Both the position numbers and the translations under genes were made by a program. Of a stretch of DNA of 64,000 nucleotides, positions 9,105-63,043 are shown piece by piece (the stretch's first letter is position 1; the number at the start of each line of letters is the position of its first letter). The notes under the pieces were generated by a model, which saw only the letters and a program-made list of their open reading frames with translations, had not been told where the DNA came from and did no database searches. The DNA lies in the NCBI GenBank assembly GCA_013698305.1, contig JACCVC010000199.1, positions 9,423 to 73,422 of the forward strand, in the 5' to 3' direction. This DNA is from Chloroflexia bacterium. Its GTDB lineage: Bacteria > Chloroflexota > Chloroflexia > Thermomicrobiales > UBA6265.

Positions 9105-9129
9105 CGTAGCGGCAGACCTTGTTTCTGCC
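9105..9129 (+). repeat. REP-like element (GTAG + hairpin)
   Basis: CGTAG-C-GGCAGA-ccttgtt-TCTGCC in the carB-pyrK spacer; a weaker opposite-facing hairpin GGCAGCTTGCTGCC+GAGCGCTTCG follows at 9180-9200, and a 'CTTCGCTTCGCTCAGGATGACGG' module at 9214-9236. Confidence 0.6.
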
Positions 9130-9252
9130 AAGGTCGAAGAGCGGGTGTACCGGATGGTAACTGGATTGTGAAAACAAGCGGCAGCTTGCTGCCGAGCGCT
9201 TCGCACGGGGGTCCTTCGCTTCGCTCAGGATGACGGCTTTGTTGGTTGGGGT

Positions 9253-10086
9253 GTGGTGATGTGTATGGATGTGATGGCGAAAACGGAATCAACCTTTTCA
9301 ACACGCGAGTTCATGGGTGAAATCATCCGGATCGAGCCAGTCATGGGCGATGCCATCCTCACCACGTTCACGGCGCCGAAGAAGGCCGTCGCTGAGGCGC
9401 GGCCCGGCCAGTTCGTCCAGATACTCAGCCGGGAACCGACCGCTTACGATCCGCTGTTGCGGCGTCCCTATTCCGTGTATCGCGCGGATCAGAAGGCCCA
9501 GACCTTGACCGTGCTGGTGCGGGCGTATGGACGAGGCAGTGCCTGGCTGATGCGGCAACAGGAAGGAGTCTCGCTGGACGTGATGGGGCCGCTGGGGGCG
9601 CCGTTCACGGTGCGGCCCAAGACGGAGCGTCTGCTTACGGTCGCGGGTGGGGTGGGCGCCGCGCCGTTGCGGATGCTGGCGGAGGCAGCGATCCGGGACG
9701 GCAAGCAGGTGACGTACCTGATGGGCGCTAATGACGCTGACGGTCTTCTGCCGGCCAGGGAATTGCCGGACGAGGTCGAGTACGTCGTGGCGACGATGGA
9801 CGGTAGCGCGGGTCACACCGGCTTTGTCACCGACATTATTCCCGCGTACCTGCAATGGGCCGATCAGGTGTTCAGCTGCGGGCCGGAGCCGATGTTCCGT
9901 ACCTTGCGGGCGGTAATTCACCAGCATCGCATGGGTGATCGACCTGATGTCCAGATGGCGGTGGAGCGGGCGATGCCCTGCGGAATCGGCGCTTGCCTGG
10001 GGTGCGTGGTGGAGACCAGGCGCGGCATGAGGACGGCTTGCGTCGAAGGGCCGGTTTTTGAGATGGACGAAATGCTATGGGGATGA
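9253..10086 (+). CDS. pyrK: dihydroorotate dehydrogenase electron-transfer subunit
   Basis: FAD/NAD-binding fold plus C-terminal 2Fe-2S motif 'CGIGACLGCVVETRRGMRTAC'; start ambiguous among GTG 9253, ATG 9259, 9265, 9274. Confidence 0.9.
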   Translation: MVMCMDVMAKTESTFSTREFMGEIIRIEPVMGDAILTTFTAPKKAVAEARPGQFVQILSREPTAYDPLLRRPYSVYRADQKAQTLTVLVRAYGRGSAWLMRQQEGVSLDVMGPLGAPFTVRPKTERLLTVAGGVGAAPLRMLAEAAIRDGKQVTYLMGANDADGLLPARELPDEVEYVVATMDGSAGHTGFVTDIIPAYLQWADQVFSCGPEPMFRTLRAVIHQHRMGDRPDVQMAVERAMPCGIGACLGCVVETRRGMRTACVEGPVFEMDEMLWG

Positions 10087-11093
10087 CACACGCAAACGCT
10101 CCGGACATGGTTGTCGATCTCGCGCCCCGGAATCCACGGGAACTGGTGCTGCGGAATCCGGTGATTCCGGCGTCGGGATGCTTCGGATACGGGCAGGAGT
10201 TCGCGGGCTCGGTCGATGTGCAGCGGCTGGGAGCTTTTGTCAGCAAGGGCATCACGCCGAAGTCTCGCTCCGGGAACCCGATGCCGCGCATCACCGAGAC
10301 GCCAGCCGGGATGCTCAATGCCATCGGCCTGCAGAATCCGGGGATATCGGGATTTATCCGGAAGTACCCTCCGATCTGGCTTTCGTGGGACGTGCCGGCG
10401 ATCGTGAACATCTCGGCGAAGAGCGTCGAGGACTTCGCGATGATGGCCCGAAAGCTGGACGACGTGCCAGGTGTCGCCGCGATCGAGGTGAATATCTCCT
10501 GCCCGAACATCAGCGCGGGAGGATTCTGCTTCGGCTGGGACGCGGCGATGTCGGCGGACGTCACTCAGAAGGTGAGGGCGGCGACGACGCTGCCGATGAT
10601 CGTCAAGCTGAGTCCAGGAGCGCTCGACATCGTTGAGATCGCGCAGGCGGTCGAGGCTGAGGGCGCGGACGCGGTGTCGCTGATCAACACGCTGGTGGGC
10701 ATGGAGATCGACATCCAGCGGCAACGACCGGTGCTTGCCAACGTGACGGGCGGGCTGTCGGGTCCGGCGGTGCGACCGGTCGCGCTGCGGATGGTGTACC
10801 AGGTGGCGGGTTCGGTGGATATCCCGGTAATCGGGATGGGCGGGATCGCGACCGTCGCAGATGCGCTCCAGTTCTTCATGGCGGGGGCAAGCGCGATCCA
10901 GGTGGGGACGGCGGCGTTCGCGCAGCCTCGCGTGCTGATGGACCTGATAGACGGTATCGAACGCTGGCTGGCGGCGCGAGGACATTCTTCGCTTGGAGGC
11001 ATTGTGGGCGTGGCCAATGAGCGATACCAGCTTCGGCGGCAGACGCCGCGCGCCGAGGACTTGTTGACGATGGAAAGCGAGTTCACCCGATGA
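10077..11093 (+). CDS. pyrD: dihydroorotate dehydrogenase catalytic subunit (class 1B)
   Basis: 'NPVIPASGCFGYG', 'EVNISCPNI', 'GGLSGPAVRP'; 10-nt overlap with pyrK. Confidence 0.93.
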   Translation: MGMTHANAPDMVVDLAPRNPRELVLRNPVIPASGCFGYGQEFAGSVDVQRLGAFVSKGITPKSRSGNPMPRITETPAGMLNAIGLQNPGISGFIRKYPPIWLSWDVPAIVNISAKSVEDFAMMARKLDDVPGVAAIEVNISCPNISAGGFCFGWDAAMSADVTQKVRAATTLPMIVKLSPGALDIVEIAQAVEAEGADAVSLINTLVGMEIDIQRQRPVLANVTGGLSGPAVRPVALRMVYQVAGSVDIPVIGMGGIATVADALQFFMAGASAIQVGTAAFAQPRVLMDLIDGIERWLAARGHSSLGGIVGVANERYQLRRQTPRAEDLLTMESEFTR

Positions 11094-11689
11094 CCGACCT
11101 CATGGAGCAACTGCGGCAGATCGGCGCGCTCAAGAGTGGGCATTTCCTGCTGGCGTCGGGCCGCCACAGCGATGTCTATCTCGAAAAGTTCGACCTGCTG
11201 CGAAATCCCGGCGCGACGGAGATCGTGTGTGCGAGGTTCGTCGAGGCGTTCGGCGATATTCCGGTCGACGTGGTGGTTGGGCCGACGACGGGCGGTATCC
11301 TGCTGGCGTTCGAGACGGCGCGGCAGATGGGTCTGCCCGCTGCCTATGCCGAGCGGGCCTCGGAAGGTGTCGAGACGCGAGAGATTCGCCGCAGCACCAC
11401 GTTTGCCGAGGCGGCGAGGGTGCTGGTGGTTGATGACATCCTGACGACTGGCGGCTCGATTCGCGAGACGTTGGGCGCGTTGCAGGTGCATCCCGTTGAG
11501 GTCATGGGAATCGGGGTGCTGGTGGACCGCAGCAACGGGAAGGTCGAGTTCGGTGATATTCCCCTGCGTCCACTTGCGCGGCAGAACGTGGAATCATGGG
11601 AACCGTCGGAGTGCCCGATGTGCAGTTACGGTGAGCCGCTGGTCAAGCCCGGCACCACCGTCGCGCAGAACGCGCTACAGGGAACCTGA
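11090..11689 (+). CDS. pyrE: orotate phosphoribosyltransferase
   Basis: PRPP-binding loop 'VLVVDDILTTGGS'; ATGA overlap with pyrD stop. Confidence 0.9.
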   Translation: MTDLMEQLRQIGALKSGHFLLASGRHSDVYLEKFDLLRNPGATEIVCARFVEAFGDIPVDVVVGPTTGGILLAFETARQMGLPAAYAERASEGVETREIRRSTTFAEAARVLVVDDILTTGGSIRETLGALQVHPVEVMGIGVLVDRSNGKVEFGDIPLRPLARQNVESWEPSECPMCSYGEPLVKPGTTVAQNALQGT

Positions 11690-11914
11690 GTCCTCGTCCG
11701 ACGCGTCCTTGTTGCGTCGGGCGAGATCGTCGCGCAGCCGGATCATGTCGTCGAGACGCTGCTCGATCTGGAGGAGCGTGTCCTCGCGAGGGCGCTCGAC
11801 ATACTCGTCGCGAAGCTCGACGAGCATCTGGGCAATCCGGGCGATGGTCCGCACGGTCTGAACATGGTCGTTCTCGCGACTTGACGCGGTGAAGCCGTTC
11901 ATTCTGTTCTCCAT
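11675..11914 (-). CDS. small hypothetical helical protein (79 aa)
   Basis: ORF 85 nt downstream of ligA on the same strand; GC-rich third codon positions and a charged heptad-like sequence; no family recognised; 3' end overlaps the pyrE 3' end by 15 nt (convergent). Confidence 0.5.
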   Translation of the reverse strand: MENRMNGFTASSRENDHVQTVRTIARIAQMLVELRDEYVERPREDTLLQIEQRLDDMIRLRDDLARRNKDASDEDSGSL

Positions 11915-11998
11915 GCGACATGCAACCGGATTTGTGATGCCGATACGGAGTCGGCGCCACGAGGCGGGGCGTTGTCGTCAGGATAGCATGAATGCGGC

Positions 11999-62219: not shown

Positions 62220-62252
62220 TACGGGATCCGGTTAAACAGTTAACGAACGACT

Positions 62253-62311
62253 CGTAGGGGCCGACACAAGGTCGGCCCAAGCCGCGGGAGGACACAAGGT
62301 CCTCCCCTACG
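62253..62311. repeat. REP doublet (REPIN-like) between convergent comM and cyclodeaminase genes
   Basis: CGTAG-GGGCCGAC-acaa-GGTCGGCCC, 7-nt spacer, GGGAGGAC-acaa-GGTCCTCCC-CTACG. Confidence 0.85.
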
Positions 62312-62353
62312 TGGTGGTGGGTGAGAGCGGCTCCTGATAGACCGCACTCGGCA

Positions 62354-62953
62354 CTAGCTGTCGATCGTCACCTCCAATCGATCTGTCAGTTCCTGTACCT
62401 GATTTGCCATGTGGGAGACGAACCCCTTGTCGCGGATCATGGCGAGATTCACCTTCACGTTGATGCGACTTGCCTCAAAGCAGGTTGACGAACAGACCAA
62501 GGCAATCCTGGTATCAGAAAGCAGATGGGGATTTCCGAACTTCTGCACAGGCCCAAGCAATTCGGCGAGTGTCAGCGCACATCTGGCGGTTTCGTGCGGC
62601 ACTGATGCTGCGTTCTTGAGCGCGAGCTGCATCCGTGCCTTGCGATGTAACCTTTCTTCGGTGGAAGATTTTGGCATCGTCGCCGCGTCCCTGTATCCCT
62701 GGTAAGCGACTTCGTCCTGTTCGGCGAGCTTTGTGAAGTGAGTCTGCAACTTTGAAAGCTGTCGCTCCGCTGCCTCCAGCGCCATGGCGCCCTCCTCGGA
62801 ATCGCGCACCGTGAGGGCGATCACCATCATGCCGAGACTGCATCCCAGCGCCCCGATGACACCCGCAACGCTGCCGCCGCCCGGCGTGGGCTCCGATGAG
62901 GCGAGCGTTTCGAGATACGAGCCAATGGTTCGGTCGGCGATGGGGTCCGTCAC
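62354..62953 (-). CDS. cyclodeaminase/cyclohydrolase family protein (FTCD C-terminal-like)
   Basis: 'YLETLASSEPTPGGGSVAGVIGALG' is the family hallmark; the ORF opens at 63109, but residues 16-42 are a translated REP element; GTG 62953 chosen; start uncertain. Confidence 0.75.
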   Translation of the reverse strand: MTDPIADRTIGSYLETLASSEPTPGGGSVAGVIGALGCSLGMMVIALTVRDSEEGAMALEAAERQLSKLQTHFTKLAEQDEVAYQGYRDAATMPKSSTEERLHRKARMQLALKNAASVPHETARCALTLAELLGPVQKFGNPHLLSDTRIALVCSSTCFEASRINVKVNLAMIRDKGFVSHMANQVQELTDRLEVTIDS

Positions 62954-62995
62954 AGTGTTTGCCTTGGTTTGGAGAGGAGAGTTGCCGACCAGCCG

Positions 62996-63043
62996 GGCAG
63001 ATACTTCGCTGAGCTCAGCACAGGTTGCGGGTCTGCCTCTACG
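62996..63043 (-). repeat. REP-like element with large loop carrying the 'CAGATACTTCGCTGAGCTCAGCACAGG' module
   Basis: GGCAGA-(30 nt)-TCTGCC-T-CTACG; CTA at 63039-63041 is the stop codon of the upstream zinc-ribbon gene. Confidence 0.7.

What the first reader, a model, noticed from the sequence alone, without database searches (positions are those of the whole stretch)
9105..63043. Dispersed REP-like family: conserved GTAG plus GC-rich hairpin, about 20 copies in 64 kb
Seen in the sequence:
- CGTAG lies directly next to a 7-9 bp GC-rich stem with a 4-5 nt loop, and this unit recurs across the window.
- With GTAG on the + strand it starts at 9105, 23608, 46553, 50210, 53147 and 62253.
- With GTAG on the - strand it starts at 14114, 18008, 23656, 42117, 50108, 50362, 51636, 53203, 58970, 62286 and 62996.
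- Decayed relics sit at 9180, 25542 and 60563.
- The best copies are GGGCCGACACAAGGTCGGTCCCTACG (58970), GGGAGGACACAAGGTCCTCCCCTACG (62286), GGACCGACACAATGTCGATCCCTACG (51636) and GGCAGACACAGGGCCTGCCTCTACG (42117).
- Outer stem bases differ between copies but change in a compensatory way: GGCAGAC/GTCTGCC, GGCCGAC/GTCGGCC, GGAGGAC/GTCCTCC, GGCGAC/GTCGCC, GGCCGAT/ATCGGCC.
- GTAG and the GAC-ACAA-G-GTC core stay fixed.
- Every copy is intergenic.

Established knowledge: classical enterobacterial and pseudomonad REPs have this architecture, a GTAG 5' of an imperfect palindrome. They are recognised by RAYT (TnpA-REP, an IS200/IS605-type Y1 transposase).

Inference: this is a lineage-specific REP family. 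No RAYT-like gene lies in the window. I do not know whether the family has been described for this organism.
Basis: partly seen in the sequence, partly recalled or inferred. Interest (0 to 1): 0.6.

Follow-up and report, generated by a model that had tools for sequence, protein, structure and literature searches.

The report
GTAG-tagged REP repeat family
The window holds about 20 copies of a short hairpin repeat of the well-known REP type, the kind copied by a RAYT transposase, so it is a real but ordinary feature seen here in an uncultured bacterium that appears related to Thermomicrobium.

Summary
A 32-nt unit recurs 17 times at covariance-model E<0.004. It reads CGTAG, then an 8-bp G+C-rich stem, a 5-nt loop (CTTGT or CCTGT), then the return stem. 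Three long-loop variants and two possible relics add to this. A degenerate pattern gives 15 matches against 0.32 expected. All copies lie in the roughly 7% of the window that is intergenic. Stem covariation is strong.

The REP/RAYT interpretation holds. The same unit directly flanks RAYT-type Y1 (HUH) transposase genes in at least nine other contigs. These include Chloroflexia contigs and soil-metagenome contigs that carry Thermomicrobiales-type coxG neighbours. Three of those RAYTs are preceded by GTAGGGGAGGACCTTGTGTCCTCCC, which is identical to the window copy at 62283-62314. One head-to-head doublet has been copied whole in both orientations, as a REPIN would be.

There are three caveats:
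- I could not find the RAYT of this species.
- "Lineage-specific" is too strong, because the same core flanks homologous RAYTs (38-41% identical) in Microbulbifer and Prevotella and recurs in four further phyla.
- GTAG is exact in only 11 of the 17 copies.

GTAG-tagged REPs were already described in Chloroflexi (Di Nocera 2013). I rate this a new member of a known kind, of low to moderate interest.

The parts
5760..5791 (-). GCAG variant, loop CTCAT. Lies between two + strand genes.
   Evidence: R1 26.3 bits, E 2.7e-4; sequence
9102..9133 (+). REP copy 41 nt after the stop of the carbamoyl-phosphate synthase large-subunit gene (5834..9061)
   Evidence: R1 36.5 bits; gene context
9180..9207 (-). 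Possible decayed partner of the 9102 copy: GGCAGC-TT-GCTGCC hairpin followed by GAGCGCTTCG. Unverified.
   Evidence: Read from the sequence; not detected by R1
14108..14139 (-). REP copy with a weak stem. The only copy in a divergent spacer.
   Evidence: R1 32.1 bits
18005..18036 (-). REP copy, GTGG variant
   Evidence: R1 36.9 bits
22894..22925 (-).
   Evidence: R1 21.7 bits, E 0.0034
23605..23683 (.). Head-to-head REP doublet (REPIN-like), GTAG ends outward. Arm a is 23605-23636(+) with stem GGCCGAT. Arm b is 23652-23683(-) with stem GGCAGAC.
   Evidence: R1 41.4 and 40.1 bits. It aligns arm for arm with the reverse complement of the doublet at 53144-53231, while spacer and flanks differ (I2/I10, 33). 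DNA fold z = -3.3.
25539..25570 (-). REP copy with a degenerate tag (TTGG).
   Evidence: R1 32.1 bits
42113..42144 (-). REP copy between the acyl-CoA dehydrogenase and thiolase genes
   Evidence: R1 39.5 bits; conserved in strains L002 and L003
46550..46581 (+). REP copy whose CGTAG supplies the last sense codon and the TAG stop of the ETF-alpha gene (45565..46557)
   Evidence: R1 29.1 bits; gene call and Pfam
50039..50170 (+). 132-nt composite repeat that contains the REP at 50104-50135(-). That REP carries ATAG here and GTAG in four sister strains.
   Evidence: the repeat finder D2; alignment with 84% mean column identity; R1 39.6 bits; strain SNP at 50131
50210..50243 (+). Long-loop REP variant (GTAGGGGCGAGT, 11-nt loop, ACTCGCC). 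It forms an inverted pair with the 50359 copy.
   Evidence: Read from the sequence; inverted repeat I24
50359..50398 (-). Long-loop REP variant (GTAGGGGCGACT, 13-nt loop, AGTCGCCC), preceded by the 50-nt repeat at 50315-50364
   Evidence: R1 16.7 bits; D16
51633..51664 (-). REP copy between two - strand genes
   Evidence: R1 38.6 bits
53144..53231 (.). Head-to-head REP doublet, the inverted copy of the doublet at 23605-23683. Arm b is 53144-53175(+) and arm a is 53200-53231(-). The TAG of arm a is the stop of ORF 53224..54414(-).
   Evidence: R1 44.5 and 38.1 bits; ORF and HIT domain
58902..59033 (+). Second copy of the 132-nt composite repeat, containing the REP at 58967-58998(-)
   Evidence: D2; R1 42.3 bits
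60563..60584 (-). Possible truncated relic. It keeps only the 3' half, AGGTCGGTCCCCACG.
   Evidence: Read from the sequence; below R1 detection
62250..62314 (.). Tight head-to-head doublet. 62250-62281(+) has its loop flipped to ACAAG. 62283-62314(-) reads GTAGGGGAGGACCTTGTGTCCTCCC, identical to the REP that precedes RAYT genes in L130, L131 and L132.
   Evidence: R1 34.4 and 42.0 bits; DNA fold -20.8 kcal/mol, z = -5.2
62996..63050 (-). Long-loop variant (GGCAGA, about 30-nt loop, TCTGCC, then TCTACG). It shares a 50-nt repeat with 50315-50364.
   Evidence: R1 11.9 bits for 63019-63046; D16. The FTCD_C domain starts only at residue 61 of the overlapping ORF, so the copy is probably upstream of the true start codon.

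Best explanation
These are REP elements (repetitive extragenic palindromes) of the GTAG-tagged superfamily. They form the non-autonomous repeat population of a REP/RAYT system.

Each unit is a GTAG tag at the foot of an 8-bp stem with a 5-nt loop.

Mechanism, inferred by homology with E. coli, Stenotrophomonas and Marinomonas TnpA-REP:
- A single-copy RAYT (an HUH/Y1 enzyme) is encoded elsewhere in the genome.
- It binds the folded hairpin on single-stranded DNA.
- It reads the GTAG tag, the top of the stem (GAC/GTC) and the loop.
- It cleaves and rejoins next to the hairpin, which spreads or rearranges REPs and head-to-head doublets (REPINs/BIMEs) into intergenic DNA.

What the data show directly:
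- The mid-stem positions vary freely, but in a compensatory way.
- The tag, stem top and loop are the conserved parts.

Once inserted in 3' UTRs and operon spacers, the hairpins probably also act as RNA or DNA structures, for example as blocks to 3' exonucleases. That step is not tested here.

The population looks old and diversified. No exact 16-mer occurs more than twice, and no copy is gained or lost among strains about 99.85% identical. Current activity may therefore be low.
For: - The family is real, non-random and intergenic.
- Stems covary.
- The units fold as DNA hairpins.
- A head-to-head doublet is duplicated as a unit in both orientations, with only the REP arms conserved.
- The same REP type flanks RAYT-like genes in L009 (Chloroflexia MAG), L123, L125, L126, L130, L131, L132, L065 (Prevotella) and L071 (Microbulbifer).
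- The RAYT-proximal REP in L130, L131 and L132 is identical over 25 nt to the window copy at 62283-62314.
- The RAYT identity of those genes rests on four results: Pfam Y1_Tnp above threshold for two of them; NCBIfam REP_Tyr_transpos as best hit at 56-60 bits; conserved MPxHxH and Y..NP motifs; and a profile that hits only PDB 4ER8 TnpA-REP, E 1e-8.
- The conserved loop and tag with a variable mid-stem match the published recognition determinants for perfect-palindrome REPs (PMC8266576).
- GTAG REPs were previously reported in Chloroflexi (PMC3733652).
Against: - The RAYT of this species was not located. There is none in the window. The RAYT contigs found come from other assemblies.
- The closest link is circumstantial. 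P0020 and P0099 occur in assemblies whose accessions suggest the same projects as assemblies that carry this species (JALYEK beside JALYEJ, JAITZQ beside JAITZD).
- No insertion or deletion polymorphism of REPs appears among nine strain contigs, so mobility is not demonstrated here.
- No two copies are identical.
- Genome-wide copy number is unknown, because only about 74 kb of this genome was available.
Confidence: 0.85

Rival explanations
1. Fossil population. The units are genuine REPs, but the cognate RAYT has been lost or inactivated in this species. The copies would then be decaying relics, kept only where the hairpin is harmless or useful to the host.
For: - Every copy differs from every other. 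Exact 16-mers occur at most twice.
- 6 of 17 tags are mutated.
- Many stems carry a mismatch.
- No presence/absence polymorphism is seen among strains 99.6-99.9% identical over up to 21 kb.
- One tag mutation (GTAG to ATAG at 50131) is private to the window strain.
- The RAYT was not found in any assembly known to carry this species.
Against: - The doublets at 23.6 kb and 53.1 kb differ by only one base per arm, which argues for fairly recent copying.
- RAYT genes sit on very short contigs flanked by REPs (716-1275 bp). They would easily be dropped from MAG bins, so absence of evidence is weak.
- The strain sample covers only about 8 REP sites.
Confidence: 0.25
2. Host-encoded structural hairpins, such as transcription terminators or mRNA 3'-end stabilisers, that arose and are maintained independently of any transposase.
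For: - 19 of 20 copies lie between unidirectional or convergent genes, often 10-60 nt after a stop codon.
- The hairpins are G+C-rich and stable.
Against: - No copy has a T-tract, and none is reported by the terminator scan.
- Both orientations occur relative to transcription.
- G·T wobbles show no preference for the sense strand, 8 against 5.
- One copy lies in a divergent promoter region.
- A conserved unpaired GTAG tag and head-to-head doublets have no role in termination.
- The identical unit brackets RAYT genes elsewhere.
Confidence: 0.05
3. Miniature derivatives of an IS200/IS605 insertion sequence (PATE/MITE-like), mobilised by a classical TnpA-IS200 rather than by a domesticated RAYT.
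For: - The enzymes that flank the units belong to the Y1_Tnp superfamily.
- A strain-specific insertion in L002 begins exactly after a TTAC, the IS608-type target, about 20 nt from a REP.
Against: - The units are 32 nt, with a GTAG tag directly at the foot of the hairpin, not left-end and right-end structures bracketing a cargo.
- The associated genes match the REP-associated tyrosine transposase model and PDB 4ER8, not IS200 TnpA structures.
- The RAYT sits at a syntenic position upstream of coxG in four contigs: L009, L131, L137 and L138. That fits a resident single-copy gene rather than a jumping IS.
- No tnpB gene lies nearby.
Confidence: 0.04

Closest known systems
GTAG-tagged REP superfamily (Di Nocera, De Gregorio & Rocco 2013, PMC3733652), which includes Thermomicrobium roseum GTAG-23 and Opitutus terrae GTAG-18 to GTAG-20
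   Same: - An unpaired GTAG at one end of a 6-9 bp G+C-rich stem.
- Sub-families that differ by complementary stem changes.
- Tag degeneracy (GYAG, GTRG, GTGG).
- Singles plus mostly head-to-head dimers spaced 1-100 bp apart.
- Location mainly between unidirectional and convergent genes.
- Occasional overlap with ORF ends.
- Presence in Chloroflexi and in distant phyla.
   Different: - T. roseum GTAG-23 is described as clustered in large blocks at a few loci and inserted in CCGSSCC(n3-4)GGSSCGG palindromes. The copies here are dispersed, about one per 3 kb.
- R1 finds nothing in the first 50 kb of T. roseum chromosome 2, and blastn of a window doublet against the plasmid collection that holds that replicon returns no T. 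roseum hit.
- The paper describes most loops as very short (many fit TY or CMA), whereas the loop here is 5 nt and conserved (CTTGT or CCTGT).
- The published consensus figures were not readable, so I could not test whether this family equals one of GTAG-1 to GTAG-24.
REPIN/RAYT and BIME/REPtron systems of Pseudomonas and E. coli (Bertels & Rainey 2011, PMC3116915; Ton-Hoang 2012, PMC3333891; Nunvar 2010, PMC2817692)
   Same: - REP doublets in inverted orientation behave as the copied unit.
- A Y1/HUH gene is bracketed by its own REPs.
- The copies are extragenic and at high density.
   Different: - The host appears to be a Chloroflexota (Thermomicrobiales-like) organism, not a proteobacterium.
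- Most copies are singlets (about 12-14) rather than doublets (3-4).
- The stems are perfect palindromes without the E. coli bulge.
- Sequence diversity is so high that exact k-mer seeding, as used for REPIN detection, would find almost nothing.
RAYT subclass 2.4 of Quentin et al. 2018 (PMC6006769), which they equate with Bertels 2017 Group 4 (PMC5581495)
   Same: - The foot of the stem is often three consecutive G-C pairs (GGG...CCC).
- A more distant homologue, L127, carries REPs inserted in frame between the HUH and Tyr motifs. The paper calls that feature unique to subclass 2.4.
- Distribution across many classes, including a Chloroflexi class, is reported for Group 4.
   Different: - The assignment is inferred from described features only. 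No reference sequences of the subclass were available for comparison.
- Bertels 2017 found Group 4 associated with only about 14 replicon-wide 16-mer occurrences, whereas density here is about 20 copies per 64 kb.
Perfect-palindrome REPs of group 3 TnpA-REP in Stenotrophomonas maltophilia and Marinomonas (Corneloup et al. 2021, PMC8266576)
   Same: A perfect stem, with GTAG and specific loop positions as the determinants that matter for enzyme activity. Here the tag, the stem top and the loop are the conserved columns, and the mid-stem covaries freely.
   Different: The sequence, loop length and RAYT clade differ, and there is no biochemistry for this family.

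Membership tests
Canonical GTAG-type REP | 5' GT[AG]G tetranucleotide directly at the foot of a hairpin | tested here: met
   GTAG is exact in 11 of 17 copies and GTGG in one. The other five differ by one or two bases. The tag is immediately followed by the first stem base.
Canonical GTAG-type REP | Short (20-40 bp) palindrome that forms a stem-loop, supported by compensatory changes | tested here: met
   8-bp stem and 5-nt loop. 85-91% of cells are paired, 7 of 8 pairs show double changes, and 0 of 500 shuffles reach the score. Slid controls give 28-51% paired. DNA folds.
Canonical GTAG-type REP | High copy number, dispersed and extragenic | tested here: met
   About 20 copies in 64 kb, all within the roughly 7% intergenic fraction. 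One more copy lies in the 10 kb next to the window. A genome-wide count was not possible.
Canonical GTAG-type REP | Inverted doublets (BIME/REPIN) among the copies | tested here: met
   Three head-to-head doublets at 23605-23683, 53144-53231 and 62250-62314, plus the wide pair 50210/50359. One doublet has been duplicated whole in both orientations.
Canonical GTAG-type REP | A cognate RAYT gene in the same genome, flanked by the same REPs (REPtron) | tested here: inconclusive
   Met in other contigs: L009, L123, L125, L126, L130-L132, L065 and L071. There is no RAYT in the window, and none was located in assemblies known to hold this species.
Canonical GTAG-type REP | Cleavage and strand transfer of the REP by its RAYT on single-stranded DNA | not testable with these tools
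   Needs biochemistry. Shown only for the E. coli, S. maltophilia and Marinomonas systems (PMC3333891, PMC8266576).
RAYT / TnpA-REP (the genes flanked by this REP in other contigs) | HUH motif and catalytic Tyr in a Y1 fold, with closest similarity to TnpA-REP | tested here: met
   M-P-x-H-x-H is invariant or nearly so. Y155, N159 and P160 are nearly invariant. The profile hits only 4ER8 TnpA-REP, E 1e-8, across both motifs. Pfam Y1_Tnp scores 28.7 and 35.7 bits against a cut-off of 23.
RAYT / TnpA-REP (the genes flanked by this REP in other contigs) | Score above the NCBIfam REP_Tyr_transpos equivalog cut-off | tested here: not met
   56.1 and 60.3 bits against a cut-off of 80. This is a divergent RAYT clade, not the curated equivalog.
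RAYT / TnpA-REP (the genes flanked by this REP in other contigs) | Single copy per genome at a stable chromosomal position | tested here: inconclusive
   The RAYT lies upstream of coxG in four contigs: L009, L131, L137 and L138. A related Thermomicrobiales-type coxG locus (L139-L148) has no RAYT there. Copy number per genome was not measurable.
T. roseum GTAG-23 family | Clustered in large blocks at a few loci, inserted in CCGSSCC(n3-4)GGSSCGG palindromes, present on T. roseum chromosome 2 | tested here: not met
   The copies here are dispersed. R1 gives no hit in T. roseum chromosome 2 positions 1-50000, and blastn of a window doublet against the plasmid collection holding that replicon gives no T. 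roseum hit. The published consensus itself was not available.
Intrinsic (Rho-independent) terminator | G+C-rich hairpin followed by a T-tract | tested here: not met
   None of the 8 terminator-like sites in 44001-64000 coincides with a REP. The REPs are followed by CCGG or other non-T sequence.
CRISPR array | Regularly spaced direct repeats with unique spacers | tested here: not met
   The copies are kilobases apart and in both orientations. There is no Rfam CRISPR hit.

The most novel reading that the evidence does not exclude
This REP type (CGTAGGG, variable mid-stem, GAC-CTTGT-GTC, CCC) is the recognition module of one RAYT clade, probably Quentin subclass 2.4 / Bertels Group 4. It would have stayed almost unchanged while the enzyme diverged to about 40% identity across at least six phyla: Chloroflexota, Gammaproteobacteria, Bacteroidota, Verrucomicrobiota, Acidobacteriota and Bipolaricaulota.

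In Thermomicrobiales-like soil bacteria it would have expanded to possibly about a thousand diversified copies per genome, by my extrapolation from the window density, a population that exact-k-mer REPIN finders cannot see.

If true, the view of REPIN/RAYT symbioses as essentially a proteobacterial, vertically inherited phenomenon with weak repeat association for Group 4 would need revising. The single-copy REPs may also show a replication-strand bias: 12 of 14 have the GTAG strand on the C-rich strand.
Probability: 0.3. Interest if true: 0.5.

Novelty: new member of a known kind. Interest (0 to 1): 0.27.

Why it matters
REP/RAYT systems are well described in Proteobacteria, and GTAG-tagged REPs have been catalogued in eight phyla, including one Chloroflexi genome. 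This finding adds a dense, dispersed and highly diversified REP population in an uncultured soil lineage that appears related to Thermomicrobiales.

Practical consequences:
- The repeats explain short contigs and assembly breaks around the RAYT gene and possibly elsewhere in MAGs of this group.
- They can supply stop codons to genes. Two cases occur in the window.
- They give a ready covariance model for annotating intergenic hairpins that could otherwise be mistaken for regulatory RNAs.

The broader point is the near-identical REP core next to RAYTs only about 40% identical in distant phyla. It could inform how RAYT-DNA recognition is conserved, but it needs a systematic survey.

Tried and rejected
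- **Generic hairpin scan.** A scan for GTAG plus any hairpin was too permissive (83 hits against 63 in shuffles). I replaced it with a covariance model and a specific pattern.
- **Genome-contig scan.** My one scan used a pattern that was too degenerate (GAYACARGRTCNNNCNCTACG). This species' own representative genome was not retrieved, and no genome-wide count could be made.
- **Hunt for this species' RAYT.** Homologue searches with the L009 and L123 RAYTs, cluster listing and contig look-ups returned RAYTs only from other samples. A metagenome scan gave just four loci. Following the RAYT-coxG synteny through a CoxG search and my last look-up reached a different species with no RAYT at that locus.
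- **Right-hand extension.** The ORF 63039-63506 is not on record.
- **Solved structures.** A single-sequence PDB search found nothing. The profile search did.
- **Plasmid collection.** It holds no copy of the window doublet and no close RAYT.
- **Literature by sequence.** A full-text search for the core sequence found only unrelated primers.
- **RNA-level selection.** I tested whether G·T wobbles prefer the sense strand. The result was 8 against 5, which is uninformative.
- **132-nt composite repeat.** It does not fold better than shuffles (z about -0.3 to -0.4), so it is not a long-hairpin REPIN.
- **Taxonomy.** tblastn of window proteins against the fetched loci was uninformative. The Thermomicrobiales affinity rests on 64% identity of the YifB-like protein to T. 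roseum, against 50% for the next best, and on the labels of REP-bearing MAGs.

Full report
**Observation**

Oriented with the tag at the 5' end, the unit reads CGTAG, then an 8-nt arm (consensus GGnCnGAC), a 5-nt loop (CTTGT in 7 copies, CCTGT in 5), the complementary arm (GTCnGnCC), and often GG.

I built a covariance model (R1) from 15 copies and ran it over the window without filters. It recovers those 15 at 29-44.5 bits. A degenerate consensus with up to 3 mismatches matches 15 times, against 0.32 expected from dinucleotide-preserving shuffles with a maximum of 2. The 11-mer core matches 13 times against 4.07 expected.

The 'relic' at 25542 is an ordinary copy with a mutated tag. The relics at 9180 and 60563 are plausible but below detection.

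The claim that GTAG and the core 'stay fixed' is overstated. GTAG is exact in 11 of 17 copies.

**Structure**

The helix is supported by covariation.
- In the 15 window copies, 85% of cells pair, 5 of 8 pairs change on both sides, and no shuffle out of 500 reaches the observed score.
- In 35 copies from the window, Chloroflexia/Thermomicrobiales MAG loci and RAYT-bearing metagenome contigs, 91% of cells pair and 7 of 8 pairs (43 cells) change on both sides. Registers slid by 1-3 columns give 28-51% pairing. That alignment was fitted to the model, so it leans towards the structure.

The variable positions are the middle of the stem. The tag, the second G-C pair, the top of the stem (GAC/GTC) and the loop are conserved. 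Single units and doublets fold as DNA hairpins better than shuffles, with z from -2.6 to -5.2.

**Location**

A crude GC3-based gene call, Pfam checks and the gene calls attached to public contigs place every copy in an intergenic spacer.
- The spacers of 40 nt or more total about 4.6 kb, roughly 7% of the window. Fifteen of the 26 hold at least one copy.
- Twelve of the occupied spacers are unidirectional, two convergent and one divergent.
- Two copies touch coding ends. The TAG of the tag is the stop codon of the ETF-alpha gene (45565..46557) and of ORF 53224..54414(-).
- None has a T-tract, and none is picked up by the terminator scan.
- Rfam finds only a tRNA-Gln.

**Higher-order organisation**

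There are three head-to-head doublets with GTAG outward, at 23605-23683, 53144-53231 and 62250-62314. The first two are reverse complements of each other. Arm a (GGCCGAT stem) and arm b (GGCAGAC stem) each differ by one base, while the spacer carries a 9-nt indel and the flanks are unrelated. So the doublet, not the single hairpin, was copied, as in REPINs/BIMEs.

Two copies sit inside a 132-nt composite repeat with 84% mean column identity. Two long-loop variants share a 50-nt repeat.

**Host**

The window is 99.6-99.9% identical to contigs in several public assemblies of an uncultured organism. Its YifB-like protein is 64% identical to that of Thermomicrobium roseum, with the next best hit at 50%. 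The REP type recurs in MAGs labelled Thermomicrobiales or Chloroflexia. I infer a Thermomicrobiales-like member of Chloroflexota.

**Link to RAYT**

No RAYT is encoded in the window (tblastn). The same REP type brackets RAYT-like genes elsewhere:
- L009, a 2.8-Mb Chloroflexia MAG contig, with REPs at 7230-7261(+) and 7814-7845(-) around a 167-aa ORF.
- L123, L125 and L126, and L130, L131 and L132.
- At 38-41% protein identity, L071 (the Microbulbifer zhoushanensis isolate) and L065 (a Prevotella MAG, with tandem REP arrays on both sides).

In L130, L131 and L132 the REP just upstream of the gene reads GTAGGGGAGGACCTTGTGTCCTCCC. That is identical over 25 nt to the window copy at 62283-62314.

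The proteins carry an invariant or nearly invariant M-P-x-H-x-H motif and a nearly invariant Y..NP motif. Two of the three scanned pass Pfam Y1_Tnp. Their best NCBIfam match is REP_Tyr_transpos, though below its cut-off at 56-60 bits against 80. As a profile they hit only E. coli TnpA-REP (PDB 4ER8), E 1e-8, among all PDB sequences.

In four contigs the RAYT lies just upstream of coxG. That fits a resident gene at a stable position.

I could not find the RAYT of the window's own species. The nearest circumstantial link is that RAYT P0020/P0099 occurs in assemblies with neighbouring accession series to those that carry this species. These contigs are only about 700 bp long and end in REPs, so they would be lost from bins.

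**Mechanism**

Shown here:
- A conserved tag, stem top and loop, with a freely covarying mid-stem.
- Doublets copied as units.
- Physical association of the repeat type with RAYT genes.

Inferred from established knowledge (PMC3333891, PMC3479197, PMC8266576): the RAYT binds the folded hairpin on single-stranded DNA, uses GTAG and loop or stem irregularities as determinants, and cleaves and rejoins nearby, which disseminates REPs. The pattern of conservation here matches the determinants reported for perfect-palindrome REPs, where loop positions and GTAG are essential (PMC8266576).

A secondary role as RNA or DNA structure in 3' UTRs is possible but untested. G·T wobbles show no sense-strand preference.

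Activity may be low or past:
- No exact 16-mer occurs more than twice.
- Six tags are mutated.
- Nine strain contigs show no REP gain or loss, only slightly elevated substitution: 8.3 per kb in REPs, 4.1 in other intergenic DNA and 1.3 in coding DNA.

**Comparison with what is known**

GTAG-tagged REPs have been catalogued in more than 80 species of 8 phyla, including Chloroflexi (T. roseum GTAG-23) and Verrucomicrobia (O. terrae). That catalogue reports the same features of sub-families with complementary stem changes, degenerate tags, head-to-head dimers and preference for unidirectional or convergent spacers (PMC3733652).

GTAG-23 is described as clustered in blocks. R1 finds nothing in the first 50 kb of T. 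roseum chromosome 2, and blastn finds no copy of the window doublet there. This is therefore probably a different family within the same superfamily.

Three features suggest the RAYT clade is Quentin's subclass 2.4 / Bertels' Group 4, but I did not test this against reference sequences:
- three G-C pairs at the stem foot;
- in-frame REP insertions inside a homologous RAYT (L127);
- a distribution across many classes.

**Verdict**

It is a new member of a known kind and of modest interest.

The one less ordinary point is that the REP core is nearly identical next to RAYTs only about 40% identical in at least six phyla. My search pattern fixed that core, so ascertainment bias applies, although additional copies found by the model in those loci also share it.

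Noticed in passing
window 50417 / L002:19620-21215: Strain contig L002 (GCA_038233255.1) matches the window up to ...GGCGTTAC at 50417, about 20 nt past the REP cluster. It then carries unrelated, lower-GC DNA in place of the aminotransferase gene. That DNA encodes a protein of more than 478 aa with no Pfam family, only a weak DUF6079 hit at E 0.24. The breakpoint directly follows TTAC, the IS608-type target.
   Followed up: partly
window 46553-46557 and 53224-53228: The TAG inside the GTAG tag serves as the stop codon of the ETF-alpha gene (45565..46557, +) and of ORF 53224..54414 (-, HIT domain). REP insertion therefore appears to have supplied or replaced gene termini.
   Followed up: partly
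window 1-64000 and L133:10936-20879: GC skew is positive throughout (+0.06 to +0.16), even where genes are on the - strand (50-60 kb), so the + strand is presumably the leading strand. Of 14 single REPs or relics, 12 have the GTAG strand on the - strand (two-sided binomial p about 0.013). This may be a replication-strand bias.
   Followed up: partly
window 50039-50170 and 58902-59033: A 132-nt composite repeat (84% mean column identity) embeds one canonical REP, with conserved flanks (GTGCATRTTGGTTGA..., ATCGTGGYGTATTGTCG...). It does not fold better than shuffles, and its origin is unknown.
   Followed up: partly
window 50315-50364 and 62982-63031: A 50-nt repeat (CAGATACTTCGCTGMGCTCAGCACAGG...) is attached to long-loop REP variants. 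This may be a second REP sub-family or a REP whose loop has been filled by another element.
   Followed up: no
L065:5846-6134 and 6813-6949 (Prevotella MAG): The RAYT gene (6191-6700) is flanked on each side by tandem arrays of 4-8 back-to-back REPs with a 35-37-nt period. The REPs are of the same sequence type as in the window, and the two arrays are in opposite orientations.
   Followed up: partly
L127:1018-1117: A RAYT homologue (39% identity) carries two REPs inserted in frame between the HUH and Tyr motifs, giving ...VGAGPRACPDKPRQPQGVADRPGQPQGVAPT... This feature has been described as unique to RAYT subclass 2.4.
   Followed up: partly
L009:6696-7796, L131:661-1905, L137, L138: The RAYT lies immediately upstream of coxG (CO dehydrogenase cluster) in four contigs. 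A related Thermomicrobiales-type coxG locus (L139-L148) has UDP-glucose dehydrogenase there and no RAYT.
   Followed up: yes
L013, L029, L049, L054, L056, L077, L084 (Opitutaceae MAG Gx485_bin97): This MAG carries dozens of nearly identical head-to-head doublets of the same REP core (CGTAGGGCCTGACCTTGTGTCAGGCC) with about 59-64 nt start-to-start spacing. It is a homogeneous, apparently young REPIN population, in contrast with the diversified one in the window.
   Followed up: no
window 62250-62281: This copy has the tag in + orientation but the loop in the opposite sense (ACAAG instead of CTTGT). The hairpin is inverted relative to its tag, possibly through recombination within the tight doublet.
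   Followed up: no
window 35874-35945: A tRNA-Gln (anticodon TTG) is the only Rfam or ARAGORN RNA gene in the window.
   Followed up: yes
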